Assembly: GCA_902596545.1 (NCBI GenBank)
Contig: CACJUH010000003.1
Coordinates: forward strand, 45,790-109,789
DNA: 64,000 nucleotides
From: an uncultured Candidatus Actinomarina sp.
GTDB taxonomy: Bacteria > Actinomycetota > Acidimicrobiia > Actinomarinales > Actinomarinaceae
Direction of reading: 5' to 3'
The notes under the pieces are model-generated. The model saw only the letters and a list, made by a program, of their open reading frames with translations. It had not been told where the DNA came from and did no database searches. Positions 5,344-60,790 of this stretch are shown here, one piece after another (position 1 is the stretch's first letter; the number at the start of each line of letters is the position of its first letter). Made by a program: the position numbers and the translations under genes.

Positions 5344-5345
5344 TT

Positions 5346-7593: not shown

Positions 7594-7596
7594 AAA

Positions 7597-8667: not shown

Positions 8668-8714
8668 ATGTCTAATTGTACAATATTGTTACATATAAGG
8701 ATTAGAATTTTCTC

Positions 8715-13505: not shown

Positions 13506-13520
13506 ACTCTTAGATTAGTG

Positions 13521-14558: not shown

Positions 14559-14588
14559 AATATACATCAATTTATCTAAAATGATTAC

Positions 14589-22396: not shown

Positions 22397-24403
22397 TTAT
22401 TGTAATTCTTTCACGGCTTTAACAACTTTTTCAACACTAGGAATAAAAGCATCCTCAAGAACTGGTGCAAAAGGAATATGTGTATTAGGTGGAGTAACCT
22501 TCACAATTGGATTATCTAAATTCCAAAATCCTTTTTCAGCAACTACTGATGATATCTCAGAGGCTACTGATGAAAAAGGGACATCTTCTTGTAGGATGCA
22601 CAAATTAGATGTTTTTTCAACTGATGTAAGAATTATCTCCTCGTCAAGAGGAACTATTGTTCTTATGTCAACAATTTCAACATTTATACCGTCGCTTTCA
22701 AGTTGCTTGGCTGCTTCAGTCGCAACAGAAACCATGCCAGACCAGGTAACAATTGTAAGATCACTACCTTCTTTAACAATTTTTCCTTTCCCTATTTCAA
22801 CTTCATAGAGACCTAATGGAACTTCCATTTTGATATCAGGTTTTCTATAGAGTTTTTTGTGTTCAAGATACATTACTGGATTTGGATCATTTACTGCAGC
22901 GACTAAAAGTCCCTTAGCATCATAAGGATTAGACGGTGCAACGACTTTAATACCAGGATGGTGAGCTAGCAGAGATTCTGGGCTTATTGAATGAAAAGGT
23001 CCAGATCTTGTTCCAGCACCAGTAGGACCTCGAACAACCATTGGTACGGCCTTTCCTGCTTTCCAATGGTATTTTGCGGCTTCAGTAGTAATTTGATCTA
23101 AAGCTGGATAAACAAAATCATAAAACTGTAATTCCACGATAGGTTTCTTTCCTGCAAGAGCTGCTCCAACTGCAGCTCCAGTGAAACCTCCCTCAGAAAT
23201 TGATGTATCAATTACTCGAAATGGTCCGTATTTATTAAATAATCCCTTAGTAGCTTTAAATGCTCCTTCAAACACACCTATGTCTTCACCCATCATGAAA
23301 ACATTTTCATCATCTTCCATTAATTCATCTAAACCGTTTGTAATTGCTTCAATAAAGTTCATAGTTTCTTTTGAACTTCCATCATTTTGTATTGCTGGTT
23401 TAGTTCTTTCAGCAAACATATCAGGAACTTCATTTTGCGGTTCAGGATCTTTTTGATTCTTTGCCCAATCTAATGTCTCTTTAATTTCAGCATCTAGCTC
23501 TTCATTAAGGCTTACGAACTGTTCTGTAGTGAATAAACCCTCTTCAACCAAAGAGTCTTCAAAGCGTGCAATAGGATCACGTTTCATCCAGAATTCTCTT
23601 ACTTCATCATTAACATATTCGGCAGGATCGTGACCAGCATGTCCATGATGTCTAAATGTAACAAGTTCAATTAGAGAAGGTCCATTACCATTTCTTGCAT
23701 TTTCACATGCTTCGTGCATTACATCAATTACTTCATAAATGTCATTACCATCAATAATTTTTGCTGGAATTCCATATCCAGCTGCACGATCTGCAACGTT
23801 TGGAGTCCCAAACTCTGTTTCGTTTGGAGATGAATAGGCAAATTGATTATTTTGCACTGTGAATACTACTGGAAGATTGAGCACTCCGGCCATGTTGATG
23901 CTTTCATGCCAAGTACCAGTTGCAGTGGCTCCCTCACCACAATTAGCAACAGCGACAACCCCGGACCCACTTTGTTGAGAAGCTAGAGCCCAACCAACAG
24001 CTACAGGTGCGGAATCTGGCAACGGAGATACAACCATCAATGTTCCCTTGTCTACTACTCCAAAATGACTATTACCATCTCGACCTTTAGATGGTCCATC
24101 ATGTTTTCCAAAAAAATTAAGTGCAATCTCTTTAAGTGTCACACCTTTTTTAATTTGCACACCGAGATCTCTGTGTGTACCACCAAATATATCTGTGTCT
24201 GCCATTCCAGCCGCTATGCCAGCCATAGATGCTTCTTGACCAATTCCAGGATATACTGCACCACTTAATTGCCCACCCTTGTACATTTTTAAGAGCCTAT
24301 CTTCCAAAAGCCTCTGAGTTTTCATAGACTTATATACATCCCAAAGTTGCTCTTTAGAAAGAGTTGACGAATACCCTTTTCTGGTAATTTTTTCGATCTT
24401 CAT
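22397..24403 (-). CDS. 2-oxoacid dehydrogenase E1 component, fused alpha-beta subunits
   Basis: 668 aa. The N-terminal half has the TPP motif GEGATATGTWHESINMAGVLNLPVVFTVQNN (E1 alpha). The C-terminal half is transketolase-like E1 beta (pyrimidine-binding and C-terminal domains). Confidence 0.8.
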   Translation of the reverse strand: MKIEKITRKGYSSTLSKEQLWDVYKSMKTQRLLEDRLLKMYKGGQLSGAVYPGIGQEASMAGIAAGMADTDIFGGTHRDLGVQIKKGVTLKEIALNFFGKHDGPSKGRDGNSHFGVVDKGTLMVVSPLPDSAPVAVGWALASQQSGSGVVAVANCGEGATATGTWHESINMAGVLNLPVVFTVQNNQFAYSSPNETEFGTPNVADRAAGYGIPAKIIDGNDIYEVIDVMHEACENARNGNGPSLIELVTFRHHGHAGHDPAEYVNDEVREFWMKRDPIARFEDSLVEEGLFTTEQFVSLNEELDAEIKETLDWAKNQKDPEPQNEVPDMFAERTKPAIQNDGSSKETMNFIEAITNGLDELMEDDENVFMMGEDIGVFEGAFKATKGLFNKYGPFRVIDTSISEGGFTGAAVGAALAGKKPIVELQFYDFVYPALDQITTEAAKYHWKAGKAVPMVVRGPTGAGTRSGPFHSISPESLLAHHPGIKVVAPSNPYDAKGLLVAAVNDPNPVMYLEHKKLYRKPDIKMEVPLGLYEVEIGKGKIVKEGSDLTIVTWSGMVSVATEAAKQLESDGINVEIVDIRTIVPLDEEIILTSVEKTSNLCILQEDVPFSSVASEISSVVAEKGFWNLDNPIVKVTPPNTHIPFAPVLEDAFIPSVEKVVKAVKELQ

Positions 24404-42593: not shown

Positions 42594-43221
42594 ACCAATA
42601 TTCTTTGCATTAGATGGACCTAATCTTAACGAATTTGAATTTATGTTAAAAAAATTAGAGGGTCATATTTTTGGAGTAAAAGTTGGTCTTGAAATGTTTA
42701 TCTCTGAGGGGCCAAAAGTAGTTGAAAAGTTGAAAAAAGATGGATGGACTGTTTTTCTTGATCTTAAACTTCATGATATTCCCAACACAGTAAGAAAAGC
42801 CACAAAAAGTGCTAATAATCTGGGAGCAGATTTTTTAACTATACACATTGCGTCGGGTAAAGATGCTTTACAAGAAGCTTATTCAAGCAAAAATGATTCT
42901 TTAAAAATTTTAGGAGTTAGTCAAGCACTTACAAGCTCAACAATGGATGCAAAAATGAGTAAGGGTGTATCTGAAGATTTTCTTTTGGCTAAGCAATGTA
43001 GTGTTGACGGTGTTATTTGTCCTCCAAGTGAAATAGAGAGAACTAAAAATCTTTATGATTTAATCGTTACACCAGGAATCAGATTAAACAACGATACCAA
43101 AGATGATCAAAAAAATACTACAACTCCAGAAAATGCAATACTTGCAGGAGCAAAATATATAGTTATGGGAAGATCCATAATAAATAATTTGGATTTTGTA
43201 ATGAATGAATTAGATATATGA
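42583..43221 (+). CDS. pyrF: Orotidine 5'-phosphate decarboxylase
   Basis: DLKLHDIPNTV (DxKxxDIP) motif and 212 aa length. Confidence 0.8.
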   Translation: MSVKPIFFALDGPNLNEFEFMLKKLEGHIFGVKVGLEMFISEGPKVVEKLKKDGWTVFLDLKLHDIPNTVRKATKSANNLGADFLTIHIASGKDALQEAYSSKNDSLKILGVSQALTSSTMDAKMSKGVSEDFLLAKQCSVDGVICPPSEIERTKNLYDLIVTPGIRLNNDTKDDQKNTTTPENAILAGAKYIVMGRSIINNLDFVMNELDI

Positions 43222-43895
43222 AAAAATTTATAGCTGCACCTTTTGGAAATTATATAAAAACAAAAAATACAATTTCCGTATCAGGTAGCTGGACTATTGA
43301 AAAAAGAACAGGGCGAATAATACAAATAGCGAAATCTCTGCGCTACACCAAAAGAGGCTGGGTAAATAAAATTGGCCTAAGAAATCCTGGCTTAAATATT
43401 GGACTTGTCAAACACAAAGAAGATGAAGTATTTTCAATCGCAGGTATTGAAAGAAACGACTGGAGAATTTTTGCGGAAAAATTGCCAGAAAATTTTAATA
43501 TTGAAGTCAATATGTCATGTCCAAACATTGATGAACATTACGTAGATGGTATTGAAAAATTTAATCCGGATAGTCGAGATTGGTTCATTGGAAAAATTTC
43601 ACCACTTACAACTTTTATTGAGCTCGAAAATTACATTACTAAATTTAACTTTAAACAAATTCATGCTTGTAACACTCTGCCCGTTGAGAAAGGTGGTCTA
43701 AGTGGAAAAGAACTTATTCCTTATACTGAAAAGTTTATTAAACACATAAAACATCATTTTCCTCAAGTTGAAGTAATTGCTGGCGGAGGAATAGATTCCT
43801 TAGAAGATATTCAAAACTATGCAAATATTGGAGCCGATCATGTAAGTCTTGGAACTGTATGTTTTAATCCGCTAAAATTGAGAAAGTTAATATGA
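43218..43895 (+). CDS. pyrD: Dihydroorotate dehydrogenase-like, unusually short (225 aa)
   Basis: GLRNPG, NMSCPN and a C-terminal IAGGGIDSLEDIQNYANIGADHVSLGT all match DHOD motifs. The protein is about 80 aa shorter than typical DHODs. Confidence 0.6.
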   Translation: MKKFIAAPFGNYIKTKNTISVSGSWTIEKRTGRIIQIAKSLRYTKRGWVNKIGLRNPGLNIGLVKHKEDEVFSIAGIERNDWRIFAEKLPENFNIEVNMSCPNIDEHYVDGIEKFNPDSRDWFIGKISPLTTFIELENYITKFNFKQIHACNTLPVEKGGLSGKELIPYTEKFIKHIKHHFPQVEVIAGGGIDSLEDIQNYANIGADHVSLGTVCFNPLKLRKLI

Positions 43896-44248
43896 ACTTA
43901 TTTATAAAAGAAGACTTTATCTCACATGCGGGACTTCCATTAACTTGGAAGGTAGAATGTGATGCTTTAACCGAAAAAGATTATGCAGCTTTGGCAAAAA
44001 TTGTAAGCGAAAAACTTACTTTTTGTGATGTTAAAGGTATTCCTAGAGGGGGAATTCCCTTTGAAAAAGCTTTAAAAAAATACTGTACATACAATAAATC
44101 AGATCCTTTGCTTATATGTGATGATGTCTATACTACTGGAACTTCAATGAGAGAAGTTTACGAAGAAGGCGCAATCGGAGTAGTTGTATTTGCAAGAAAT
44201 GAAATTAATGATGATTGGATAAAAGCTATTTGGCAAATGGCAATCTAG
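43892..44248 (+). CDS. pyrE: Small type I phosphoribosyltransferase, putative minimal orotate PRTase
   Basis: PRPP-binding motif LLICDDVYTTGTS. It sits at the pyrE position of the operon, but at 118 aa it is far shorter than canonical OPRTase (~180-210 aa). Confidence 0.45.
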   Translation: MNLFIKEDFISHAGLPLTWKVECDALTEKDYAALAKIVSEKLTFCDVKGIPRGGIPFEKALKKYCTYNKSDPLLICDDVYTTGTSMREVYEEGAIGVVVFARNEINDDWIKAIWQMAI

Positions 44249-49717: not shown

Positions 49718-50152
49718 ATGCCTGCTTTTTTTATTAATCCATTGAGTGAAGAACATATAGACTTGCTGAAAAGACTTGATGAACAAAATCAAGATTTAAG
49801 AGTATTTGTATCAGATAAAAATTCACAAGATTATATAGATAAAATTCCTGGTAAAAAGGCTATCGGTGATATCACAGATGATTCACATATTTCAACAGCA
49901 TCTGAGGGAGCATATTGTGGAATATTTTTCGTGGAAAGAAACAAGAAATTGAGTGACGTTTTTGTAAATGCAATTCAAAATTCAAATTTACAAAGAATTT
50001 TATGGGTTTCAAAAGAAGAACCTAGAAATAATATTTTAGAAATTGATAATCTCACCTATATTAAACATTCAGGCGAAAATGATTACTTTGATACGGTTCT
50101 AAGTCTTGAAGAAGTTGAAGAAGTTAATGAAAAATTTGTTGACTTAAAATAA
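49718..50152 (+). CDS. Hypothetical protein
   Basis: 144 aa with no recognisable motifs. It diverges from the suf operon. Confidence 0.4.
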   Translation: MPAFFINPLSEEHIDLLKRLDEQNQDLRVFVSDKNSQDYIDKIPGKKAIGDITDDSHISTASEGAYCGIFFVERNKKLSDVFVNAIQNSNLQRILWVSKEEPRNNILEIDNLTYIKHSGENDYFDTVLSLEEVEEVNEKFVDLK

Positions 50153-50771: not shown

Positions 50772-51611
50772 ATGAAAAAAAGTTCCTTTTTCAAAAGTGG
50801 GTCTGGCTCGAGAAAAGCATTTGTATCAAGCTTTCAAAATGAGAAAGAACTAAAAGAAATTCAACAAGATAACAATTCCTCCTCAGTTAAAAATGAGATA
50901 TTCAACAAGAGTTCTGAAAATATGGAAGAGCTTGTTGATAACTGTGTTTCACTTACAGTCACTTCACCTCCATACAATATTGGAAAAGATAGTGATTTAG
51001 ATTTAAATGACGAAGAATATTGGAAAATGATAAATAAAGTTTTTTTAGAAACTTATAGAGTTACAAATTCTGGTGGAAGGTTAGTAGTAAACGTTGCAAA
51101 TTTAGGTAGAAAGCCATATATTCCGTTTTCAAAATATTTTACAGACGTTTTAACCGAAATTGGCTTCATTATGAGAGGTGAAATTATATGGCAAAAATCT
51201 AAAGGAGCAAATGCTAATTTTGCTTGGGGAAGCTGGCTTTCAGCCTCAAATCCAGTTATTAGAGATATACACGAGTACTGTCTTGTTTTTTCAAAGGATT
51301 CTATGAAAAATTCTAGCGGAGGTGTTTCAACTATTGAAAAAGATGAGTTTATGGAATCTACATTGTCAATATGGAATATTAATCCCGAGAAGGCAAAAAA
51401 AATTGGCCATCCAGCACCATTCCCTGTTGAGCTTCCAAAGAAATTTATCAATCTTTATAGCTTTAAAGACGACTTAGTTCTTGATCCTTTTATTGGAAGT
51501 GGCACCACAGCTGTAGCATCTAAACTAATGCAGAGAAATTATGTAGGTTATGAAATAAATAAAGATTTTATAAAAATTGCTAATAAAAGGTTAGAAACAG
51601 AAACTAGTTAA
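50772..51611 (+). CDS. DNA amino-methyltransferase (beta-class, N4-cytosine or N6-adenine), apparently orphan
   Basis: Motif IV SPPY precedes motif I LDPFIGSGTT (beta-class order). The first ~50 codons are low-complexity, and an alternative ATG lies at 50922 (MEELVDNCVSLTVTSPPY). Confidence 0.8.
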   Translation: MKKSSFFKSGSGSRKAFVSSFQNEKELKEIQQDNNSSSVKNEIFNKSSENMEELVDNCVSLTVTSPPYNIGKDSDLDLNDEEYWKMINKVFLETYRVTNSGGRLVVNVANLGRKPYIPFSKYFTDVLTEIGFIMRGEIIWQKSKGANANFAWGSWLSASNPVIRDIHEYCLVFSKDSMKNSSGGVSTIEKDEFMESTLSIWNINPEKAKKIGHPAPFPVELPKKFINLYSFKDDLVLDPFIGSGTTAVASKLMQRNYVGYEINKDFIKIANKRLETETS

Positions 51612-53325
51612 CTAATTTCCAAGCTGAGAATAAATCTTGATATATTTCATTATTCTTTAATAAATTTTCATGATTATCGAAACCTACTAATTTTCCATCA
51701 TGCATAACTATTATTTTTTCAGCATTAATTATTGTTTCTAGTCTATGTGCGATAACAATTGAGGTTTGATAAGCAAGTAGTCTATCTGTTGCGTCAAGAA
51801 TAGAATTCTCTGACTCAATATCAAGATTCGCAGTAGCCTCATCAAAAACAATTATCTCTCTTTTAGCCAAAACAGCTCTTAGTAGGGCTATGAATTGTCT
51901 TTCCCCAGCTGATACATTAGAGCCTCTTTCGCCGACTTCCTGGTCTAATCCGTTTTCATATCTTTCAAACCAATCAAGGACTCCGATTTCCTGAAGTTCT
52001 TGTTCTAAATTAATATCTTCAGGATTTGAATATACTAAATTGTTTTTGATTGATCCCCTAAATAAAAAGCTTTCCTGAGGTACATATGCAATATTTTTTC
52101 TAGCCCATTTTTGTGTAACATCTCTTGAAGGTTCACCATAAAAATTGACATCTCCTTCATTGGGTAAATAAAATCTTAAAATAAGTTTTGCTATAGTGCT
52201 TTTCCCAGCACCAGTCTCTCCAACAATCGCAATTTTTTCTCCTTTGTTGATAGAAAATGAAACATCATGTAAAACCCTTTCTCTACCATACGAAAAGTTC
52301 ACTTTATCAAACTCAATTACATTGTTGTTATCCATATCTGGAGTAGTTGATCCAGTATTACTAAGTACAGGTTCTTCGTCCAAAATTGAAAAAACTTTTT
52401 TCATAGAAGATCCAGCAGATCTCAACAAGTCATAATTGAACGACAGCATAATTAATGGGTCAAAAAAATAGTTTAAGTAAAAAAGTAATGCAACTAATTC
52501 TCCAACAGTTAATGTGCCTTGATCAATTCTTTGTGCAGCAAACCAGATAACAATTGCTATAGAAGTTACTCTTGTAATTTCTAAAAATGGAAAATAGAAA
52601 GCAATATTTTTAGCAGATTGCATATTTGCTTTAAAGTGCTCATTATTTACTTTCTTAAAATTATCTAGTTGAGAAGTTTCATCTGCGTAAGCTTGGATGA
52701 TCCGAACACCAGAAATACCCTCTTGCAATGAAGATAAAACTTGTCCAATCCACTCTCGAACAGACCAATAAGCTCTGTCCGCATAATTTCTAAAAATTTT
52801 AGTTGCGATTCCAAGTAACGGAAGAATTAAGAACGATAAAAGTGCCAATCGAACATCTACAAGAAAAACTGCAATTGTAGCTCCAAAAATTGTTAGTAGT
52901 GCAGTAATAATGCTGCTTGCACCTTCTCTTGCAAACTCATTCAAGCTCTGCATATCTGATGTCATTCTTGCAACCAATACGCCTGTTTTGTTTTTTTCAA
53001 AATAATTAATATCTAATGAAGATAGATGTCTGAATAGTTTTTCTCTCACTCTTCGAACATATAATTCTCCAACCAATCCGATAGATAAAAGAGCTTTGCT
53101 AGCTACAAAATATAAAGCAACTAATGTCAAAAAGTAATAAAAACTTTGCTCTAATAAATAGTTGTAATCTGATTTAAGAACTCCATTATCTATTCCTCTA
53201 GATATTAATTGAGGACCGACCATTCTAATTAGAGTTGCAGCCATAGCAATTAAAGAGCTATATAAGAATGGTTTATTTACCTCTGGAACTAATTTATACG
53301 ACCTAAAAAAAGTATTATCTATCAT
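51604..53325 (-). CDS. ABC exporter, fused permease and ATPase (second subunit of a heterodimer)
   Basis: Six-TM domain plus Walker A GETGAGKST and LSGGQ-like SAGERQ. The start was moved to ATG at 53325 (MIDNTFF...), giving an 11-nt overlap with the upstream paralog rather than the 70-nt overlap of the track ORF. Confidence 0.75.
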   Translation of the reverse strand: MIDNTFFRSYKLVPEVNKPFLYSSLIAMAATLIRMVGPQLISRGIDNGVLKSDYNYLLEQSFYYFLTLVALYFVASKALLSIGLVGELYVRRVREKLFRHLSSLDINYFEKNKTGVLVARMTSDMQSLNEFAREGASSIITALLTIFGATIAVFLVDVRLALLSFLILPLLGIATKIFRNYADRAYWSVREWIGQVLSSLQEGISGVRIIQAYADETSQLDNFKKVNNEHFKANMQSAKNIAFYFPFLEITRVTSIAIVIWFAAQRIDQGTLTVGELVALLFYLNYFFDPLIMLSFNYDLLRSAGSSMKKVFSILDEEPVLSNTGSTTPDMDNNNVIEFDKVNFSYGRERVLHDVSFSINKGEKIAIVGETGAGKSTIAKLILRFYLPNEGDVNFYGEPSRDVTQKWARKNIAYVPQESFLFRGSIKNNLVYSNPEDINLEQELQEIGVLDWFERYENGLDQEVGERGSNVSAGERQFIALLRAVLAKREIIVFDEATANLDIESENSILDATDRLLAYQTSIVIAHRLETIINAEKIIVMHDGKLVGFDNHENLLKNNEIYQDLFSAWKLVN

Positions 53326-55090
53326 TTTGTGTATCCACCGATTCACTCTCCAAAAACAGGGATTTGTAACTTTCAATATTATCAATTAATTCAGTATGAG
53401 TGCCTTGTGCTTTAACAGTCCCATTCTCAATAAAGACTACTTCATCACAAAGCTCTATGGTAGGAGCTCTGTTCGTGATAATTAGCGTAGTCATATTGTT
53501 CATTACTGATTTCAATTCACTTCTTATCTCTTCTTCAGTTGATGCATCAACAGCAGAAAGAGCATCATCTAAAATAAGTATCCTTGGTTTTCTGAGGATT
53601 GCTCTTGCTAAAGCTATTCTCTGTCTTTGACCTCCTGATAGTCCATAACCCCTTTCACCAACTTTTGTCTCGTAAGACTCAGGTAATAATGAAATAAATT
53701 CATGTGCTCTTGCAGTTAAAGCAGCTTCTTCAACTTCTTCTTGAGTGGCATCTCCTAGACCAAGAGCTATATTTTCTCGAGCTGAATTTGAAAATAAGAA
53801 ACTTTCTTCAAATGCTAAGCTCACGTTACTTCTTAATTCATTGAGTTTAAGGTCATTGATATTGACACCATCAATTTCTATAGTTCCTGATTCTACTTCA
53901 TAAAGTCTTGGCAACAAATAAGCTAGTGTTGATTTCCCAGAACCAGTAGCCCCAACAATTGCAACCGTTTTCTTCCCATCTATATTAAAACTTAAATCAT
54001 CAAATATTTTTTCTTTTCCATATTTGAAATTAACTTGATTGAATGCAATACTTCCATCTCCATCAGTTGGAAGAGATTTGGTAGAGTCATTATCAGTAAT
54101 AAGTGGAACCTCATCTAACAATTCTAAAATTCTTGTGCCAGCCGCAACACTTGATGGAATTTCAGATAAGAACCAAGCGGTGATTCTTAATGGCCATAAA
54201 AGTAAAAAAACGTACTGTGTAAAAGCAATAAATTCTCCTAAAGAAATAAGTTCATTTATTGACAAATATCCACCAAGAATTAAGACGGCTAATGTGATAA
54301 TCATTGGAATTAATTCAAACATTGGAACAAAACGCGTTCTGAGTTTCAGGTAGTCAAGAGATGTGTCATATATGTTTGATACAGCAGACTCTACCTTGCT
54401 GGAGGCATACTCTTCATTACCAAAGGCTTTTACAACTCTAATTCCTCCGAGTTGTTCCTCTACTTCGGTGGTCATTCTTGCTTCTGCCTCTTTAACTTTT
54501 AAAGATACATCTAGAGCTTTTGAGGAAAAATTTGATGCAAGCCAAAGAACCGCCGGAATAGAGAGGATGACAATTGCACCTAATGGAAGACTTAATGTTA
54601 AAAGAGTAATACTGAGAATTAATAGTAAAAATATATTAGCCGTAGCGAGTGGGGCAATAGCAAAAGCAAGTCTGACCTGAGATGCATCACTGGATGCACG
54701 GGCCATTAATTCACCCGTTGGTACTTTGTCATGATAATTAAAAGCTAGCTTTTGCATATGAGTAAAAATTTTGTTCCGTATCCCTGCCTCTACGTTGTAT
54801 GAGACATGCATGCCAAAGTATCTTCTTGTGCCAATTGAAATCGCTCTTGAATATCCTGCCAAAACCATAAAGGAAATTAAAACAATAAGATTCCTTTGGT
54901 TTCCTGTAATAATTCCTTCATCGATAATTATTTTTATTAAATATGGTTGAATAACTACAAGAAAACACCATAAGACTGCTGATGACATTGCAATAATAAA
55001 ATTTCTTTTATTTTCTATAATCTCTGCTTTATAGAAATTTAATGCTTTTTTAAATTCCGGTGTTTTAAAGACTTTAAACATATTAATCAA
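53315..55090 (-). CDS. ABC exporter, fused permease and ATPase (first subunit of a heterodimer)
   Basis: Six-TM domain, Walker A GATGSGKST, LSGGQRQR and Walker B ILILDDALS. Confidence 0.8.
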   Translation of the reverse strand: MINMFKVFKTPEFKKALNFYKAEIIENKRNFIIAMSSAVLWCFLVVIQPYLIKIIIDEGIITGNQRNLIVLISFMVLAGYSRAISIGTRRYFGMHVSYNVEAGIRNKIFTHMQKLAFNYHDKVPTGELMARASSDASQVRLAFAIAPLATANIFLLLILSITLLTLSLPLGAIVILSIPAVLWLASNFSSKALDVSLKVKEAEARMTTEVEEQLGGIRVVKAFGNEEYASSKVESAVSNIYDTSLDYLKLRTRFVPMFELIPMIITLAVLILGGYLSINELISLGEFIAFTQYVFLLLWPLRITAWFLSEIPSSVAAGTRILELLDEVPLITDNDSTKSLPTDGDGSIAFNQVNFKYGKEKIFDDLSFNIDGKKTVAIVGATGSGKSTLAYLLPRLYEVESGTIEIDGVNINDLKLNELRSNVSLAFEESFLFSNSARENIALGLGDATQEEVEEAALTARAHEFISLLPESYETKVGERGYGLSGGQRQRIALARAILRKPRILILDDALSAVDASTEEEIRSELKSVMNNMTTLIITNRAPTIELCDEVVFIENGTVKAQGTHTELIDNIESYKSLFLESESVDTQNDR

Positions 55091-55168: not shown

Positions 55169-56686
55169 ATGGTTGATGTATTAGATAACAAAATAGAAAA
55201 AGTTTTAGATTCAGCTGATCGTATGTTCATTGCGACAAGTGTTGGTGGAAACTCTTCAGGAGCTTCCGTGTTTTTCAGTAGAGATGGGGAAAATCTAGTA
55301 TTCTTTACCTTCCACCCTACTCGTAAGGCTGAGCAGATTAGATTGAACCCTCGCGTTCATGTTGTTATATGGCCTAAAGGCCAAGAAGGAATTGAAGGTC
55401 TGCAAATTGACGGAGAGTGTTACAAAATAAAAGATGAAGATGAGAAAAAAAGAGCTTATGAGTTAGTTCTTAAAACTACTGACGCTTTCAAAGAATATAT
55501 GGAAGACGAATTTTTAATCAAAAATGATGTAGTTGGTTATTACAGAGTAAAACCTACAACAATCAAATATGTAAATTTTTATGAAGAAGAACAATTCCAA
55601 TGGAAGACAATACCAGGAAATAAAACTTCTGCTGTCAAAATGGCTTTTAAACTTGGTCTCAAACGAATTGGACTTTGGCTTAGGACAATTAGAGCGCCTT
55701 TCCTGACAGCAACATTTGCACCAATCTTCATTGGAGCTGCAGTTGCGTGGAATGATTTGAAAGACGCTGGGTTAGACTCTTCATGGTCATGGAGAATGTT
55801 TTGGCTAGTTTTAGGAGGTGCTTCTCTAGCTCAAGTTGCTACGAATGCATCAAATGATTATTTTGATCATACTTCTAACGCAGACGAAATAAACAAAGTA
55901 CCAAGTCCGTTTAATGGTGGAAGTAGAGTCATACAAGTTGGCTTAATGACACCGGGACAAGTCTTAATCACAGCACTTATGAGTATTGCAGGTACCGTAG
56001 CTATTGGTTTATATCTTAACCAACAAGTTAGTGGTTCATTTTTCGGAAATACTCCTATTTTATGGACTGGTATCATAGGAACATTTTTAGCTCTTGGTTA
56101 TACCGGGGATCCTGTCCGATTAGGGTATAAAGGACTTGGAGAGATAGCAATTGCATTAGGTTTTGGCCCTGTAATGGTAATGGGAGCACATTATGTTCTT
56201 ACAGCATCTATTCATGAAAATGTAGTCTCTAATTGGAATTGGATGGAAGCATTGATTGCATCTGTGCCAATTGCAATTCTTGTAATGTTGATTGTGTGGA
56301 TTAATCAATTCCAGGATGCACCATCAGATGCAGCTGTAGGAAAAAACACCTGGGTAGTAAGGACTGCAGAACAAGGTGAGTGGATGAAACTTGAAAAACC
56401 ACTTAGGTTGTACAAACAGTTTATGATTGAGGCTTTTATTGCAGTAGCTCTTGTTGGAGCACTGAGTTTCTTTACAGATTTTGGTACTGTTTATGCTTTT
56501 ATGGCGCTTATCCCCCTAGTACTAGTATGGAAAGCATTCAAAATGGCTGATGAGTGGATGATTAAGTGGAATAATCCCAATGCTGATCGACAAAAAGTTC
56601 CTTATGAACTTTTGTTAGTCAATGTATCAACAATTGGAATTCATTTTCTAACCGGAATCCTTTTAGCTGTAGCTTACATTTTGTAA
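55169..56686 (+). CDS. menA: Fusion of a PNPOx-like FMN/deazaflavin-binding split-barrel domain (N-terminal) with a UbiA/MenA-family prenyltransferase (C-terminal)
   Basis: The N-terminal ~150 aa have a PNPOx-like pattern (MFIATSVGGNSSGASVFF...VHVVIWPKG). The C-terminal part has LRTIRAPFLTATFAPIFIGA and NASNDYFDHTSNAD (UbiA NDxxDxxxD) plus ~8 TM helices. Confidence 0.7.
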   Translation: MVDVLDNKIEKVLDSADRMFIATSVGGNSSGASVFFSRDGENLVFFTFHPTRKAEQIRLNPRVHVVIWPKGQEGIEGLQIDGECYKIKDEDEKKRAYELVLKTTDAFKEYMEDEFLIKNDVVGYYRVKPTTIKYVNFYEEEQFQWKTIPGNKTSAVKMAFKLGLKRIGLWLRTIRAPFLTATFAPIFIGAAVAWNDLKDAGLDSSWSWRMFWLVLGGASLAQVATNASNDYFDHTSNADEINKVPSPFNGGSRVIQVGLMTPGQVLITALMSIAGTVAIGLYLNQQVSGSFFGNTPILWTGIIGTFLALGYTGDPVRLGYKGLGEIAIALGFGPVMVMGAHYVLTASIHENVVSNWNWMEALIASVPIAILVMLIVWINQFQDAPSDAAVGKNTWVVRTAEQGEWMKLEKPLRLYKQFMIEAFIAVALVGALSFFTDFGTVYAFMALIPLVLVWKAFKMADEWMIKWNNPNADRQKVPYELLLVNVSTIGIHFLTGILLAVAYIL

Positions 56687-57310
56687 TTGTCCGAAAAAGC
56701 TAACTTTTCAAACATATATAAGTTCTACGATCTAATAAATACTGTTTTAACATTTGGTTTTGATAAATCTTGGAGAGAAAAAGCAGTAAGTAACCTTATT
56801 GGAAATTCTGTTCTTGACTTAGGAAGTGGCACTGGTGCTGCTTACGAACAACTTCTTAACTTTGAAACTACTGCTATAGATCCAGATAAAAAGATGTTGG
56901 AGTTAAATACATTTGAAAATAAAGTTTTAGGCTCTGCTGAAAACTTGCCTTTTGAGGACAATAGTTTTGACAATGTTTTTTGTTGTTTCGTATGGAGAAA
57001 TGTATCAGATACTAATAAAGCTCTTCAAGAGGTATATAGAGTCTTAAGTCCAGGTGGAAAGTTTATCCTTTTAGATATGACAAGGCCTAAAAACCCTTTC
57101 TTGAAGATATTGCATAAAATTGGAACGTTCAAAGTACTTCATTTGGTTGGTCTTCTTACATTTAATTTAAAAGAGTATAGATTTCTTTATAAGTCTCTAG
57201 ACTTTTATCCTCAGCCAGAAAATCATTTAAAAAAAGATACTTTTATAGATCTTCAAATTGAGAGAATGGGTCTATTTAATTTTGTCTACTTAGCAGTTTT
57301 TACAAAGTAA
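56687..57310 (+). CDS. Class I SAM-dependent methyltransferase, UbiE/MenG-like (demethylmenaquinone methyltransferase candidate)
   Basis: VLDLGSGTGA motif I and LSPGGKFILLDM. Directly follows the MenA-like gene. Confidence 0.65.
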   Translation: MSEKANFSNIYKFYDLINTVLTFGFDKSWREKAVSNLIGNSVLDLGSGTGAAYEQLLNFETTAIDPDKKMLELNTFENKVLGSAENLPFEDNSFDNVFCCFVWRNVSDTNKALQEVYRVLSPGGKFILLDMTRPKNPFLKILHKIGTFKVLHLVGLLTFNLKEYRFLYKSLDFYPQPENHLKKDTFIDLQIERMGLFNFVYLAVFTK

Positions 57311-57333: not shown

Positions 57334-57960
57334 TTATTGATTGGCTAAAGCTATAAGTAGCTGTCCTACTTGATCTTGCGGTAAGTTACCTGTTCTTCTA
57401 GCAACTACCTTTAAATCTTTGTCTAGAAATACCCAGTACGGGAAAGAATTCACTCCATAAGCTGTGCCTATATCCCTATCAATATCATAGATTTGTGTTT
57501 CTGACCAGCCTTCTCTTTCAAGCCAGTCATGTGGTGGATAGTTGTCTCTTGATCTATCAATTGATGTAGCTACAGCAATAATTTCTACACCTTGTGGGAT
57601 ACCAATGATATCTATATATTCTTGTACAATCGGAACTTCTTTTTGACAGAATCCACACCAGTGAGCTAAAAACAGAAGAACTTTTGCGTTACCATTTTTC
57701 TCTAACGAGACAATCTCAGAATTTTCATTTGGCCCTGAAAATATTGGAGCATCAAGACCTCTTGCAACATTGTCATCATTTTCGCCAGCATATTCTGGTA
57801 AACCTTGTCCGGTAATTGTTGTCTCACCTTCGGGCAAATTACCATCTAATGGCTCATCAACTAAAGAAACACCAATAGCAACAGCTAAACCTACTACTAA
57901 AACTACTGCTCCTGCGATGATAAAGTTTCTATTCAACTGTTTCCTTTCTCGAAATATCAT
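57334..57960 (-). CDS. Membrane-anchored thioredoxin-fold thiol:disulfide oxidoreductase (TlpA/ResA/BdbD-like)
   Basis: N-terminal TM helix and WCGFCQKE (CxxC) in a thioredoxin-fold context. Confidence 0.7.
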   Translation of the reverse strand: MIFRERKQLNRNFIIAGAVVLVVGLAVAIGVSLVDEPLDGNLPEGETTITGQGLPEYAGENDDNVARGLDAPIFSGPNENSEIVSLEKNGNAKVLLFLAHWCGFCQKEVPIVQEYIDIIGIPQGVEIIAVATSIDRSRDNYPPHDWLEREGWSETQIYDIDRDIGTAYGVNSFPYWVFLDKDLKVVARRTGNLPQDQVGQLLIALANQ

Positions 57961-58447
57961 AATACAACAACGACAAGAATATTGTTAGAAATCCTGTAGT
58001 TGCCATAACGGGAATGCTTATAAATCCAAATATATCTACATATTTTAAATTACATGGAACATCAATCGCACAAGAGCCTCCTCCTCCTCCACCATTTTGT
58101 AAATATATATGATAGAAACCAATAACAGCTCCAACAACGCTTAAGTATCCTGCTTTAATTACTGATTTATTAAATAAACCTATTATTAAAAATAGAGCTA
58201 TTGGATACATAAGATATCGTTGATACCAGCAAAACTTACATGGAATAAAACCGACAACTTCAGAATACACAAGACTTCCAATTGAACAAAAGAGTGCAAC
58301 ACTGGCTGCAAAATTATAAAACTGATCGTTGATTAATTTACTAAATCTTTTTTTAGTAAATATGAAATACAGAATTAAAGCACTTATGGCCCATGCAACA
58401 AAGGTGAAGAAGCCAAATAAAGTATTAAAAAAAATAATTAAGTCCAT
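57929..58447 (-). CDS. Disulfide bond formation protein B (DsbB/BdbC family)
   Basis: FIPCKFCWYQRYLMYPIAL closely matches Bacillus BdbC FIPCELCWYQRILMYP. A second Cys pair is present (GSCAIDVPC), and there are 4 TM helices. Confidence 0.75.
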   Translation of the reverse strand: MDLIIFFNTLFGFFTFVAWAISALILYFIFTKKRFSKLINDQFYNFAASVALFCSIGSLVYSEVVGFIPCKFCWYQRYLMYPIALFLIIGLFNKSVIKAGYLSVVGAVIGFYHIYLQNGGGGGGSCAIDVPCNLKYVDIFGFISIPVMATTGFLTIFLSLLYYDISRKETVE

Positions 58448-58519: not shown

Positions 58520-59179
58520 TTAGACTTTTTCTCCAGATTTGATTCTTGCCATTCCAAGTACCAATACACCAAGACCGACTTTATTAATAATGTCAGCAAT
58601 TGTGTAAAGAACTTCTCTAATAGCATCAAAATCTCCTGCTACAGGTGCTAGATATCCTAATGGATAGATTATCCAACCAACAAGTATTAGGTTTTTGATT
58701 TTCTCAAACTGTTCTGCCTCTGCTGCTTTTAGACCAGCACCTTCTGCTTGAAGATTTCTCATCAAGTAGACATATGCTACCATCGCAATTACAAATCCTG
58801 TCCAGTATTGATCTGAACCCGCACTTGATGTTTCGCCGTAATAACCGGCTCCAATCATAACGGTTGCAGCGACTCCCCAGTTTCTAACTTTTTCGTTATA
58901 CTCTGCGCCTGAAGATGTCACAGCAAGTACCTCTACAAACATTAGTGGTACTGTAAGGACCCAGTCGACATATCTTAACCCGGTATCATAACTACCACTG
59001 TCCCATGAGCCAGTCATTTTGTTATAGTGATACCACGCTATTCCTGTCACAAGAGCGGAGATATAAACTCCTTTTCTGTGCTTAGGATCTACTTCTCTTG
59101 ATGATGCTAGTAAAAATACTGTACCAGCGAGCATGCCCACTGTTCCCACCATAAAGAGTCTATAAGTAAGTTCAGCCAT
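58520..59179 (-). CDS. Microbial rhodopsin, proteorhodopsin/actinorhodopsin-like light-driven proton pump
   Basis: Seven TM helices. Helix C reads RYVDWVLTVPLMFVEV, with the D...T...E proton acceptor/donor spacing of proteorhodopsin. The Schiff-base Lys is in ADIINKVGLG. A strong SD (AAAGGAG) lies 8 nt before the ATG. Confidence 0.9.
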   Translation of the reverse strand: MAELTYRLFMVGTVGMLAGTVFLLASSREVDPKHRKGVYISALVTGIAWYHYNKMTGSWDSGSYDTGLRYVDWVLTVPLMFVEVLAVTSSGAEYNEKVRNWGVAATVMIGAGYYGETSSAGSDQYWTGFVIAMVAYVYLMRNLQAEGAGLKAAEAEQFEKIKNLILVGWIIYPLGYLAPVAGDFDAIREVLYTIADIINKVGLGVLVLGMARIKSGEKV

Positions 59180-59293: not shown

Positions 59294-60790
59294 TTATTTT
59301 GCAGAACTACTAACAAACTCTTTAGAATTACCCCATTTTTCTAAATATGGCTTTAAATTAAACTTCCTAGCCGCTGAATCTGATGTCATGTACCTTATTT
59401 TGCCGTATATTTTTCTTTCAGGACCCCACGCTCTGTCGTATCTACCTAAAATCCAAAAAACGCCGGAATAAGAATTAGGATCTCTTCCATCTAATGAATA
59501 CCTATCATTTAGAGTAATCATATAAGAAAGCGCTATTTGAGGATTTGGAGACCACTCCAATATCTTTTTTCCCCAAAGCATTCTCAGATAATTCTGAATT
59601 ACACCTTGTTCTCTTAGTTGATTTTGAGCTGCATTCCATATTTCATCATGAGTCTGCGAGTAAGTGAGCTGCTCAAGACTATAGATATGTTCTCTTTCGT
59701 CGTCTGAATGTTCACGAAGAGTCTTAATTGCCCACTCTGGCAGACTCGAATATTGATTGTAGTTGGCACGTCTTACACAAGTATGATATCCAAGTTCACG
59801 CCAAGTAATCAATTCATCTAAAAAGCTTTCGAAATTGAGTGAACCTCCCCACCAGCCTTCTCTCCTCCCAACTAAAGTAGGATTAATTTTTTCAGGTGAC
59901 CATGACTCATGTTCAACTAATCTCTCAAATACTTCATGAGTAGAAATTTGCCCAAAATGAAAGTAGGGTGACATTTGACTACTTGCTTTCTTTGATGGAT
60001 CGCTTCTATATTGTGCATAATCACTGTACCCCTCAGAAAGAAAATCATTAAATCTTTGCAAAGCATTAGAATACCCACCTTTAATTGAACTGACTTTTAC
60101 AGATTTATCTATATCCAATTGATCAAGAAATGAATCTATGTCTGTATTTTTAAAATCAAAAGGTTTCCAGGTTTTTTCTACTGAAGAAATCATTGAATTA
60201 TCAAAATCTTTAATTAACTCATCTAATGGGTCTTCCAATGGAGTCTCCACTATAAAATCTTCCAAATTTTTATGCAGATATCTTCTAAAATCATGTGCAC
60301 GTACATACTCTTTTTCAGAGAGCCTTATTGGCACAAGTCCATTTGAATCAACCAACTCATATCTTGATGGGATCTCTCCGGATGCCTTGGCTGTCATTTG
60401 TGGAACAAAGTAGGTTGGATAATCATCAGTAATTACAACAGACGCCTGCTTAGAAATCTCCGTTAGAAGCCCATCAGAATGTTTTGGTTCTGTTTCAACA
60501 AAGGGATAGTAATAAGCTTTTGTTTTTGATACAGCTTCAGAGACTTCCTTCATTCCGTCCATCATAAATTTATGGAATCTCAGACTCGACATTGGATAAT
60601 CAAGAATTAATGGCTCTAAAATTACTAAAGGCTGAGATAATTTATTAGCCCATTCGACTGCACGCTGTAGTGCAAAATTATATTTTGTTCTTTTAAATGC
60701 AATACACCAATAAATAACAAACTTTGAAGAACTCACATCTGGGGTGATATCTTTTAATGTTGTTACTCTTGAGTAAGGAACTTGAACCAT
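59294..60790 (-). CDS. phr: Class II CPD deoxyribodipyrimidine photolyase
   Basis: The C-terminal region MSPYFHFGQIS...HIYSLEQLTYSQTHDEIWNAAQNQL...RMLWGKKILEWS...NDRYSLDGRDPNSYSGVFW...DRAWGPERKIYGKIRYM aligns closely to class II photolyases such as Methanosarcina CPDII. Confidence 0.85.
   Translation of the reverse strand: MVQVPYSRVTTLKDITPDVSSSKFVIYWCIAFKRTKYNFALQRAVEWANKLSQPLVILEPLILDYPMSSLRFHKFMMDGMKEVSEAVSKTKAYYYPFVETEPKHSDGLLTEISKQASVVITDDYPTYFVPQMTAKASGEIPSRYELVDSNGLVPIRLSEKEYVRAHDFRRYLHKNLEDFIVETPLEDPLDELIKDFDNSMISSVEKTWKPFDFKNTDIDSFLDQLDIDKSVKVSSIKGGYSNALQRFNDFLSEGYSDYAQYRSDPSKKASSQMSPYFHFGQISTHEVFERLVEHESWSPEKINPTLVGRREGWWGGSLNFESFLDELITWRELGYHTCVRRANYNQYSSLPEWAIKTLREHSDDEREHIYSLEQLTYSQTHDEIWNAAQNQLREQGVIQNYLRMLWGKKILEWSPNPQIALSYMITLNDRYSLDGRDPNSYSGVFWILGRYDRAWGPERKIYGKIRYMTSDSAARKFNLKPYLEKWGNSKEFVSSSAK

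What the first reader, a model, noticed from the sequence alone, without database searches (positions are those of the whole stretch)
55169..57310. PNPOx/FDOR-like flavin-deazaflavin split-barrel domain fused to MenA prenyltransferase, followed by UbiE/MenG
A single 505-aa ORF joins an N-terminal soluble PNPOx-like domain of ~150 aa to a UbiA-family DHNA prenyltransferase that carries the NDxxDxxxD motif. In Actinobacteria this split-barrel fold includes the F420-dependent FDORs. The mycobacterial F420H2-dependent enzyme Ddn can reduce menaquinone, and cofD/cofE for F420 biosynthesis lie in this same window. The fusion may therefore couple a flavin or deazaflavin redox step directly to menaquinone prenylation or reduction. 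I am not aware of such a fusion having been described.
Basis: partly seen in the sequence, partly recalled or inferred. Interest (0 to 1): 0.6.

Follow-up and report, generated by a model that had tools for sequence, protein, structure and literature searches.

The report
Flavoprotein-like domain fused to MenA prenyltransferase
A marine actinobacterium (Candidatus Actinomarina) carries a real, strongly conserved gene that joins a small flavin-type domain to the membrane enzyme that attaches the lipid tail of vitamin K2, followed by the methylase for the last step; the same uncharacterised fusion occurs in many bacteria and in Asgard archaea and probably keeps the quinone head group reduced for tailing and methylation.

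Summary
ORF 55169-56686 (505 aa) is a PNPOx-like split barrel (residues 1-150), a basic linker helix, and a nine-helix MenA-type UbiA prenyltransferase. A UbiE/MenG-like methyltransferase (56687-57310) starts directly after its stop codon.

It is not an assembly chimera. The same architecture occurs in about 200 species genomes: all Candidatus Actinomarina, plus Calditrichota, Fidelibacterota, KSB1, Bacteroidota, Gammaproteobacteria, Acidiphilium, Chloroflexi and Heimdall/Hodarchaeota. The N-domain is more conserved than the transferase domain and has co-evolved with it.

- There is no Ddn-family hit.
- Every PPOX-class F420 model scores far below its cut-off.
- The fold is closest to generic flavin- or heme-binding split barrels.
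- cofD/cofE lie 51 kb away.
- Most host phyla are not known F420 producers.

My best explanation is a bifunctional late-step menaquinone enzyme. The cytoplasmic flavin domain would keep the naphthoquinone head group reduced for prenylation and for MenG methylation. This is inferred by analogy with NDC1 in phylloquinone synthesis and with the reductant requirement of UBIAD1.

I found no paper describing the fusion. I rate it a new variant of a known kind, of moderate interest.

The parts
55169..55618 (+). N-terminal soluble PNPOx-like split-barrel domain (residues 1-150), predicted to be cytoplasmic
55301..55351 (+). Conserved motif FFTFHPTRKAEQIRLNP (residues 45-61). T47, T51, R52 and K53 align with the FMN-phosphate site of E. 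coli PdxH (T83, S87, R88, K89).
   Evidence: hmmsearch and hhalign alignments to 1dnl/PdxH. F45, F46, T47, R52, K53, A54 and Q56 are invariant in 110 sequences. The translation was checked. The role of the PdxH residues is from my own knowledge of that enzyme.
55619..55693 (+). Basic linker helix (residues 151-175; 7 K/R, no D/E), probably lying at the membrane surface
   Evidence: AlphaFold helix 155-173. Charge count. This is the least conserved segment, at 33% identity.
55694..56686 (+). MenA-type UbiA-superfamily prenyltransferase domain with nine transmembrane helices (residues 176-505, plus the stop codon)
   Evidence: Pfam UbiA 84.5 bits. MenA models are the only NCBIfam UbiA-family subfamilies hit. 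It is 24% identical to E. coli MenA over 298 aa at E=1e-17, and shows no similarity to E. coli UbiA. Best PDB relatives are UBIAD1 8djk and DGGGPS 6m31.
55844..55894 (+). First Asp-rich motif, NASNDYFDHTSNADEIN (N226, N229, D230, D233, D239, N242), at the cytoplasmic end of TM2
   Evidence: Invariant in all 73 sequences, including the distant clades. It aligns with E. coli MenA ANDYGDAVKGSD. Translation checked.
56303..56344 (+). Second Asp-rich motif, NQFQDAPSDAAVGK (N379, D383, D387, K392), at the cytoplasmic end of TM6
   Evidence: Invariant in 73 sequences. It aligns with E. coli MenA NNLRDINSDRENGK. Translation checked.
56687..57310 (+). UbiE/MenG-like C-methyltransferase (207 aa). Its TTG start directly abuts the TAA stop of the fusion gene.
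   Evidence: Pfam Ubie_methyltran 105.9 bits. It is 32% identical to E. coli UbiE at E=8e-29. The junction sequence is TAATTG. It is syntenic in nearly all Actinomarina genomes.

Best explanation
The two genes form a small operon for the last steps of menaquinone (vitamin K2) synthesis.

The 505-aa protein is a bifunctional membrane enzyme. Its C-terminal nine-helix domain is a MenA-type prenyltransferase that transfers a polyprenyl chain from polyprenyl diphosphate-Mg2+ to a 1,4-dihydroxynaphthoate-type head group. Its N-terminal PNPOx-like domain sits in the cytoplasm on the same face as the prenyltransferase active site and most probably binds a flavin (FMN or FAD).

I infer that this domain keeps the naphthoquinone head group in the reduced quinol form. 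It could act on the acceptor before prenylation, on the demethylmenaquinone product, or on both. The quinol is the only form that can be prenylated, and it is the form that the downstream MenG/UbiE enzyme methylates.

Shown here: the architecture, the MenA-type catalytic motifs, the topology, the conservation and co-evolution of the two domains, and the recurrent linkage to UbiE-type methyltransferases.

Inferred only: flavin binding, the electron donor, and the quinone-reductase role.
For: Architecture and family:
- Pfam and NCBIfam assignments.
- The C-domain matches E. coli MenA at E=1e-17 with both Asp motifs aligned. It does not match E. coli UbiA.
- The best solved relative is UBIAD1.

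Conservation of the fusion:
- More than 100 protein clusters at 49-92% identity, 200 species genomes, and deeper fused clades including Asgard archaea.
- The N-domain is more conserved than the C-domain, 61% against 53%.
- N-domain and C-domain pairwise distances correlate at r=0.76.

Topology:
- All 16 loop K/R residues lie on the side that carries the N-domain and both Asp motifs.
- The full-length model has pLDDT 92 and pTM 0.87.

Possible flavin site:
- FFTxxxTRKAEQIxxNPRV aligns with the PdxH FMN-phosphate loop.
- T47, T51, R52 and K53 are kept in 43-48 of 49 main-clade sequences. K53 is kept in 18 of 18 Asgard-clade sequences.

Link to quinone synthesis:
- A UbiE-family methyltransferase lies immediately downstream in Actinomarina and in L061, L064 and L080. 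One lies 2 kb downstream in Heimdallarchaeota LC_3.
- Non-fused sister prenyltransferases sit next to a polyprenyl synthase and shikimate-pathway genes.
- In Proteobacteria the gene lies among quinone-dependent respiratory modules: a Psr-like Mo-oxidoreductase with NrfD, a NiFe hydrogenase, a NapC/NirT cytochrome, and Coq10-like SRPBCC proteins.

Precedents:
- UBIAD1 has no activity without a reductant, because the head group must be a hydroquinone to be prenylated (PMC4398444).
Against: - No biochemical evidence exists. The cofactor was not identified and I could not inspect model coordinates, so the distance between a putative flavin site and the prenyltransferase cavity is unknown.
- All MenA equivalog models score below their curated cut-offs (110.8 against 264; 79.5 against 102.15), so this is a divergent MenA relative.
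- Two PdxH FMN-contact positions (R67, K72) are not conserved.
- Two small clades (6 of 73 sequences) have lost the TRK motif.
- No other men or mqn genes are in the 64-kb window.
- I could not check whether Actinomarina has a separate canonical menA or a head-group pathway.
- In most non-Actinomarina loci the gene stands alone, without a methyltransferase neighbour.
Confidence: 0.45

Rival explanations
1. The N-domain is an F420H2-dependent FDOR-type reductase, like Ddn or the PPOX-class F420 enzymes, and uses the deazaflavin made by cofD/cofE to reduce menaquinone or its precursor.
For: - Actinomarina makes F420: cofD and cofE are in the window, and PMC7771536 reports the pathway and F420-dependent enzymes.
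- The best, though very weak, NCBIfam match of the isolated N-domain is TIGR03618 Rv1155_F420 at 20.3 bits.
- The nearest stand-alone relatives also score highest, below threshold, on that model.
- FMN-type and F420-type split barrels cannot be separated by fold alone.
Against: - No member hits the Ddn family, PF04075.
- 20.3 bits is far below the 79.05 cut-off and equal to the PdxH score of 19.1.
- The N-domain is 50-60% identical between Actinomarina and Calditrichota, Fidelibacterota, Bacteroidota and Gammaproteobacteria. To my knowledge these are not F420 producers, and there is no sign of a cofactor switch in Actinomarina.
- cofD/cofE are 51 kb away and not syntenic with the fusion.
Confidence: 0.1
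2. The N-domain is not a redox enzyme. It is either a structural or regulatory cap or dimerisation module on the cytoplasmic face of MenA, or a heme- or ligand-binding sensor of the HugZ/MSMEG_6519 type.
For: - Two small fused clades have lost the TRK motif but keep the domain.
- PNPOx-fold proteins are obligate dimers (my own knowledge), so the domain could simply dimerise the enzyme.
Against: - The N-domain is more conserved than the catalytic domain: 38 of 150 columns are at least 95% conserved.
- That conservation includes the loop that binds the flavin phosphate in PdxH.
- No conserved His or Cys is available for heme ligation.
- All 45 members scanned pass the PNPOx_N model.
Confidence: 0.2
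3. The enzyme does not make menaquinone. The MenA-like domain prenylates a different aromatic acceptor that the N-domain produces or presents, for example another quinol, a phenazine-like compound or a flavin-like compound.
For: - Scores are below every curated MenA cut-off.
- The gene occurs in Acidiphilium and Gammaproteobacteria, which are typically ubiquinone organisms.
- SnoaL and SRPBCC 'polyketide cyclase' neighbours occur in Proteobacteria.
- UbiA-family phenazine prenyltransferases exist (PMC4044012), and PhzG is a PNPOx-fold oxidase.
Against: - MenA models are the only NCBIfam UbiA-family subfamilies hit at E<0.01.
- The motifs are of MenA type.
- UbiE/MenG-type methyltransferases recur next to the gene in at least four lineages across two domains of life.
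- Non-fused sisters sit with a polyprenyl synthase and shikimate genes.
- Actinobacteria use menaquinone as their respiratory quinone (general knowledge).
Confidence: 0.15
4. The ORF is an assembly or annotation chimera of two separate genes.
For: None found.
Against: The same continuous ORF is present in more than 50 independent Actinomarina SAGs and MAGs, and in hundreds of clusters from other phyla. Composition shows no break at the junction. The AlphaFold model is confident across the linker.
Confidence: 0.01

Closest known systems
MenA, 1,4-dihydroxy-2-naphthoate polyprenyltransferase (E. coli b3930; TIGR00751/PRK06080)
   Same: The C-domain shares the UbiA fold and both Asp-rich motifs in the MenA form (NDYxDxxxxxD and NxxxDxxxDxxxGKxT). 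It is 24% identical over 298 aa at E=1e-17, and a MenG/UbiE methyltransferase is the neighbouring gene.
   Different: It carries an additional 150-aa PNPOx-like domain and a linker helix at the N-terminus. It scores below all curated MenA cut-offs. It has an invariant SPFNGGSR loop between TM2 and TM3.
UBIAD1 (human menaquinone-4 synthase; PDB 8djk)
   Same: It is the closest solved structure by sequence profile (E=2.9e-6) and is a MenA-clade prenyltransferase. Its naphthoquinone substrate must first be reduced to the hydroquinone.
   Different: UBIAD1 has no fused redox domain and depends on external reductants or enzymes. It uses menadione and GGPP. It is a eukaryotic ER/Golgi protein.
NDC1/NdbB, the flavin NAD(P)H quinone oxidoreductase of phylloquinone synthesis
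   Same: It is a flavoprotein acting between MenA and MenG that reduces the demethyl-naphthoquinone so it can be methylated (PMC8133638). This is the function I propose for the N-domain.
   Different: It has an unrelated fold (a type II NADH dehydrogenase with two Rossmann domains), is a separate protein, and is known from plants and cyanobacteria. The resemblance is functional only and is inferred.
Small PNPOx-like split-barrel proteins (general stress protein 26/COG3871, Lin2891 3db0, YhbP; PdxH)
   Different: The domain is almost never found alone. Of 1.84 billion representatives only 65 match at E<1e-3, and nearly all of those are fusions or fragments. The nearest stand-alone proteins are 26-38% identical. 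It lacks the PdxH C-terminal segment and two PdxH FMN contacts.
Ddn/FDOR-A and PPOX-class F420-dependent oxidoreductases (FDOR-B; Rv1155, Rv2074)
   Same: They share the split-barrel superfold.

Membership tests
UbiA prenyltransferase superfamily (PF01040) | Profile match above the curated threshold | tested here: met
   84.5 bits against 34.2. 44 of 44 full-length family members scanned also match.
UbiA prenyltransferase superfamily (PF01040) | Two Asp-rich Mg2+/diphosphate-binding motifs on cytoplasmic helix ends | tested here: met
   N229-D230-D233-D239 and N379-D383-D387 are invariant in 73 sequences. They lie on the positive-inside face.
UbiA prenyltransferase superfamily (PF01040) | Nine-helix membrane fold | tested here: met
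   The AlphaFold model has pLDDT 92 and nine long helices. Foldseek hits 6m31, 7bpu and 8djk.
MenA (DHNA polyprenyltransferase) | Score above the curated equivalog cut-offs (TIGR00751, PRK06080 models) | tested here: not met
   Best scores are 110.8 against 264 and 79.5 against 102.15. MenA models are nevertheless the only NCBIfam UbiA-family subfamilies hit.
MenA (DHNA polyprenyltransferase) | MenA-specific motif forms, and specific similarity to a characterised MenA rather than to the 4-hydroxybenzoate enzyme UbiA | tested here: met
   E=1e-17 to E. coli MenA with both motifs aligned. E=0.44 to E. coli UbiA.
MenA (DHNA polyprenyltransferase) | Genomic association with other menaquinone genes | tested here: inconclusive
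   A MenG/UbiE-like gene is adjacent here and in at least four other lineages. No menB to menF or mqn genes are in the 64-kb window. The whole genome could not be searched.
MenA (DHNA polyprenyltransferase) | Catalyses DHNA prenylation with decarboxylation | not testable with these tools
   Needs complementation of a menA mutant or an enzyme assay.
PNPOx-like FMN-binding split barrel (PF01243, clan CL0336) | Profile match above the threshold, and the split-barrel fold | tested here: met
PNPOx-like FMN-binding split barrel (PF01243, clan CL0336) | Flavin-phosphate binding residues | tested here: inconclusive
   T47, T51, R52 and K53 align with PdxH T83, S87, R88 and K89 and are conserved in the main clade. 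The PdxH R67 and K72 equivalents are not conserved. The motif is lost in two small clades.
PNPOx-like FMN-binding split barrel (PF01243, clan CL0336) | Bound FMN or FAD, and a homodimer | not testable with these tools
   Needs purified protein.
PdxH (pyridoxamine 5'-phosphate oxidase proper) | Equivalog score, and the full-length enzyme with its C-terminal segment | tested here: not met
   TIGR00558 scores 16-19 bits against 180. Only residues 11-74 align.
FDOR-A / Ddn family (F420H2-dependent quinone reductase, PF04075) | Profile match | tested here: not met
FDOR-B / PPOX-class F420-dependent oxidoreductases (TIGR03618, 03666, 03667) | Score above the curated cut-off | tested here: not met
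   17-20 bits against cut-offs of 79-125.
FDOR-B / PPOX-class F420-dependent oxidoreductases (TIGR03618, 03666, 03667) | The host makes F420 | tested here: inconclusive
   Met for Actinomarina (cofD and cofE; PMC7771536). Not tested for the other host phyla.
HugZ/HutZ-type heme-binding split barrels | Profile match and a conserved axial His | tested here: not met
   No HutZ model hit for the window domain. There is no conserved His or Cys among the N-domain columns that are at least 90% conserved. The fold similarity is high.
UbiE/MenG C-methyltransferase (downstream gene) | Profile match, and similarity to a characterised enzyme | tested here: met
   PF01209 scores 105.9 against 20.1. It is 32% identical to E. 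coli UbiE at E=8e-29. TIGR01934 scores 130.6, below its cut-off of 158.35, so it is a short, divergent member.

The most novel reading that the evidence does not exclude
The fusion is a self-sufficient 'reduce-then-prenylate' enzyme. Together with MenG, it would let genome-streamlined marine microbes such as Actinomarina, which may lack the men and mqn head-group pathways, build menaquinone from scavenged oxidised naphthoquinones. It would act as a bacterial and archaeal counterpart of UBIAD1 with a built-in reductase. In Actinomarina the electron donor might be F420H2.
Probability: 0.15. Interest if true: 0.75.

Novelty: new variant of a known kind. Interest (0 to 1): 0.5.

Why it matters
Menaquinone synthesis in bacteria is normally drawn as MenA followed by MenG, with no dedicated redox step. 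Plants and cyanobacteria, however, need a flavoprotein (NDC1/NdbB) between those two enzymes, and UBIAD1 needs a reduced head group.

A conserved MenA with a built-in flavin-type domain would be the first bacterial or archaeal candidate for that missing step, physically coupled to prenylation. It is present in very abundant ocean lineages (Actinomarina and Marinimicrobia; single protein clusters hold up to 2,643 member sequences) and in Heimdall/Hodarchaeota.

It would give a directly testable model for how the redox state of the head group is controlled during quinone synthesis. If the scavenging variant is right, it would also explain how streamlined cells obtain their respiratory quinone. 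It is not a new kind of system, and the mechanism is still an inference.

Tried and rejected
- **Assembly chimera:** rejected.
- **Ddn/FDOR-A membership:** rejected.
- **PdxH proper:** rejected.
- **Heme O synthase or 4-HB UbiA type for the C-domain:** rejected. Only MenA models hit, and there is no similarity to E. coli UbiA.
- **Conserved gene neighbourhood across phyla:** none was found beyond the methyltransferase. The pntAB genes downstream are specific to the Calditrichota lineage. Other neighbours are unrelated. The upstream genes of L079 and L082 are not homologous to each other.
- **Split versions (a stand-alone PNPOx gene next to a non-fused sister MenA):** not seen.
- **Literature:** four searches for the fusion found nothing ([syntax error], 10, 37, 38). 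The Actinomarinales genome paper does not discuss quinones.
- **RNA elements and terminators around the operon:** none found.
- **The AlphaFold-database fold library** was unavailable.
- **Extending the genome beyond the window** failed because the window protein is not on record.
- **Model coordinates** are not exposed, so I could not examine the domain interface, dock FMN against F420, or model the dimer.
- **Three long proteins (P0153, P0166, P0174)** among the weak hits show the same repeated short N-terminal matches. P0153, the only one scanned, is a NACHT-WD40 repeat protein, so that match is spurious. P0166 and P0174 were not scanned.
Full report
**1. What is there**

ORF 55169..56686 (+) encodes 505 aa. 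It is followed without a gap by ORF 56687..57310 (+, 207 aa). The TAA stop of the first gene abuts the TTG start of the second.

The pair is transcribed divergently from two ABC-exporter genes (51604..55090, minus strand). It converges on a thioredoxin-like and DsbB-like gene pair, a rhodopsin and a photolyase. It therefore looks like a two-gene unit. No Rfam element or terminator-like site was found around it.

Pfam gives PNPOx_N on residues 6-96 (36.9 bits, gathering score 28.1) and UbiA on residues 184-457 (84.5 bits). The second protein is a UbiE/COQ5-family methyltransferase at 105.9 bits.

One small correction applies. The first Asp-rich motif is NDYFDHTSNAD, which is NDxxDxxxxxD as in E. 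coli MenA, not NDxxDxxxD.

**2. Source and reality of the fusion**

The window is from Candidatus Actinomarina (OCS155; Actinomarinales). The best locus is 98% identical.

A scan of one genome per species found 200 genomes encoding a relative. Of the 80 best, about 55 are Actinomarina or Actinomarinales. The rest are Draconibacterium (70% identity), Fidelibacterota, Calditrichota, KSB1, Chlorobiota, Cytophagia, and Gammaproteobacteria including Arenicellales and Chromatiales.

The protein database holds more than 100 clusters with the same two Pfam domains at 49-92% identity. Some have thousands of member sequences.

A profile of four distant fused proteins found further fused clades:
- Heimdallarchaeota and Hodarchaeota
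- Acidiphilium
- Chloroflexi
- Marinimicrobia

The ORF is continuous in every case, so it is not a chimera.

**3. The C-terminal domain**

NCBIfam hits only MenA-type models, but all are below their curated cut-offs. The best are 110.8 against 264, and TIGR00751 at 79.5 against 102.15.

Against E. coli proteins taken from the K-12 genome:
- It matches MenA at 24% identity over 298 aa, E=1e-17. Both catalytic motifs and the YT..P..GY.GLG.I loop align.
- It shows no similarity to the 4-hydroxybenzoate enzyme UbiA (E=0.44).

The best solved relative by profile is UBIAD1 (E=2.9e-6). The AlphaFold model (pLDDT 92, pTM 0.87) has nine long helices and matches DGGGPS and UBIAD1 by Foldseek. The residues of both Asp-rich motifs are invariant in 73 sequences spanning all clades.

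Non-fused sister enzymes, 43-53% identical to the C-domain of the Asgard-type clade, lie next to a polyprenyl synthase and shikimate-pathway genes. I conclude that this is a divergent MenA-clade prenyltransferase.

**4. The N-terminal domain**

*Fold.* Modelled alone it reaches pLDDT 90.
- F420 enzymes come lower: Rv2074 13.3, MSMEG_3380 12.5, Ddn-type 11.7-12.1, Rv1155 11.5. PdxH is at 11.8.
- Foldseek TM is 0.85 to Lin2891 and 0.83 to GSP26.

*Sequence.* The domain is isolated in sequence space.
- Of 1.84 billion representative proteins only 65 match at E<1e-3.
- Nearly all of these are fusions or fragments.
- The nearest stand-alone proteins are 26-38% identical.
- None of those passes any curated NCBIfam cut-off. 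Their top sub-threshold models are Rv1155_F420 or YhbP.

*Family models.* All 45 family members scanned pass PNPOx_N and none hits the Ddn family.

*Possible flavin site.* The loop FFTFHPTRKAEQIRLNPRV aligns with E. coli PdxH FYTNLGSRKAHQIENNPRV. From my knowledge of PdxH, this loop holds the FMN phosphate through T83, S87, R88 and K89.
- T47, T51, R52 and K53 are kept in 43-48 of 49 main-clade sequences.
- K53 is kept in 18 of 18 Asgard-clade sequences.
- Two small clades (6 sequences) have lost the motif.
- No His or Cys is conserved, which argues against heme.

FMN, FAD and F420 cannot be told apart from these data.

**5. The two domains together**

The N-domain is more conserved than the transferase domain. 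Identity between the window protein and 94 distant members is 61% for the N-domain and 53% for the C-domain. The linker is only 33% identical.

Pairwise distances of the two domains correlate at r=0.76 over 73 sequences. The fusion is therefore old and the two domains are inherited together.

All 16 Lys/Arg residues of the loops lie on the side that carries the N-domain, the linker and both Asp motifs. None lies on the other side. The split barrel is thus cytoplasmic, on the same face as the active-site opening.

**6. Genomic context**

Within Actinomarina the order is conserved: ABC, ABC, then fusion and methyltransferase, then Trx, DsbB, rhodopsin and photolyase.

Outside Actinomarina there is no universal neighbour. 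A UbiE-family methyltransferase nevertheless recurs:
- It lies directly downstream in L061, L064 (Fidelibacterota) and L080, at 150-161 bits.
- It lies 2 kb downstream in Heimdallarchaeota LC_3, at 180 bits.

In Proteobacteria the gene sits among quinone-dependent respiratory modules:
- In Acidiphilium: a Psr-like Mo-oxidoreductase with NrfD, rhodanese, a NiFe uptake hydrogenase, and SRPBCC and SnoaL proteins.
- In a gammaproteobacterium: a NapC/NirT cytochrome and a SnoaL_2 protein.
- In Chromatiales: a Coq10-like SRPBCC gene overlapping the start of the fusion gene.

These contexts point to quinone metabolism.

**7. Mechanism**

My best explanation is that the protein is a MenA-type prenyltransferase with a built-in flavin domain that controls the redox state of the naphthoquinone head group. 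MenG completes the pathway. Two precedents make this plausible:
- Phylloquinone synthesis needs a flavin NAD(P)H quinone oxidoreductase, NDC1, between MenA and MenG (PMC8133638).
- UBIAD1 is inactive without a reductant, because only the hydroquinone can be prenylated (PMC4398444).

Flavin binding, the electron donor and the reductase activity are inferences. I give the full statement about 0.45 and its parts as follows:
- about 0.75 for a MenA-type role in menaquinone synthesis
- about 0.6 for flavin binding
- about 0.35 for quinone reduction specifically

The rivals are listed separately: F420 dependence, a structural or heme-binding cap, and a non-menaquinone acceptor.

**8. The F420 idea**

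cofD and cofE are present, and Actinomarinales are known to make F420 (PMC7771536). However, these genes lie 51 kb from the fusion, and the family models and fold ranking do not favour FDORs. The domain is also 50-60% identical in phyla that, to my knowledge, do not make F420. The F420 link is therefore unsupported but not excluded for Actinomarina itself.

**9. What could not be done**

- I could not search a whole Actinomarina genome for a second menA or for the men and mqn head-group pathways.
- The window itself contains only housekeeping genes besides this operon.
- Model coordinates and the AlphaFold-database library were not available.

**10. Verdict**

The feature is real, ancient, widespread and strongly constrained. 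It is uncharacterised in the literature I could search. It is a new variant of a known kind, of moderate interest (0.5). It would be of higher interest if the built-in reductase or the head-group scavenging reading is shown experimentally.

Noticed in passing
window 57334..57960 (-) and 57929..58447 (-): A membrane-anchored thioredoxin-like protein and a DsbB-like protein (Pfam DsbB, 46.5 bits) overlap each other, sit right after the MenA-MenG unit, and stay near it in all Actinomarina genomes. DsbB-type enzymes pass electrons to quinones (my own knowledge), so the proximity to quinone-synthesis genes may be functional. Actinobacteria more often use VKOR.
   Followed up: partly
window 59294..60790 (-), next to rhodopsin 58520..59179 (-): This 498-aa ORF has no Pfam hit at 1e-4 but is clearly a class II CPD photolyase: E=1.5e-69 to Methanosarcina mazei 2xry and E=4e-70 to 8oet. 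From my own knowledge, that enzyme family can use the deazaflavin 8-HDF as an antenna, which would be another consumer of the cof pathway in this genome.
   Followed up: partly
window 2836..3732 (+) and 3725..4423 (+): cofD (2-phospho-L-lactate transferase, 150 bits) and cofE (F420 gamma-glutamyl ligase, 194 bits) overlap by 8 bases. They confirm F420 synthesis genes in the window but are 51 kb from the fusion.
   Followed up: yes
window 19490..21136 (-): A single 548-aa ORF combines a LipB/LplA-type lipoyl(octanoyl) transferase catalytic domain with a lipoyl synthase (LIAS_N plus radical SAM). This is an apparent LipB-LipA fusion, lying next to 2-oxoacid dehydrogenase E2, E1 and E3 genes.
   Followed up: no
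window 22397..24403 (-): A 668-aa ORF carries the E1 alpha (E1_dh) and E1 beta (Transket_pyr, Transketolase_C) parts of a 2-oxoacid dehydrogenase in one polypeptide.
   Followed up: no
window 366..2552 (-), 13521..14183 (-), 49718..50152 (+), 43892..44248 (+), 14178..14558 (+): These ORFs of 728, 220, 144, 118 and 126 aa have no Pfam match at the thresholds used.
   Followed up: no
L054 and L056 (Draconibacterium MAGs), 8001..9515: The Bacteroidota copies are 69-70% identical to the Actinomarina protein, clearly closer than any other non-actinobacterial copy (49-60%). This suggests horizontal transfer between these lineages. Their neighbours are unrelated: a decarboxylase, a glycosyltransferase and Sua5.
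   Followed up: partly
L001, L066-L068, L070, L073, L074 (Calditrichota): The fusion gene is followed by the NAD(P) transhydrogenase genes pntA, pntAB and pntB in all Calditrichaceae loci. This is either lineage synteny or a hint of NADPH supply.
   Followed up: no
L089/L090 (Acidiphilium), 3495..17440: A divergent fused homologue, whose N-domain is no longer detected by Pfam, sits between two modules. On one side is a Psr-like molybdopterin oxidoreductase with an FeS subunit, an NrfD subunit and a rhodanese. On the other is a NiFe uptake hydrogenase cluster. SRPBCC and SnoaL genes lie adjacent. This is unexpected in a lineage usually regarded as using ubiquinone only.
   Followed up: no
window 43218..43895 (+): This 225-aa ORF matches only the C-terminal third of the dihydroorotate dehydrogenase profile (positions 190-274 of 291). 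It lies at the end of a pyrimidine-synthesis gene row. It may be a short or mis-started pyrD.
   Followed up: no
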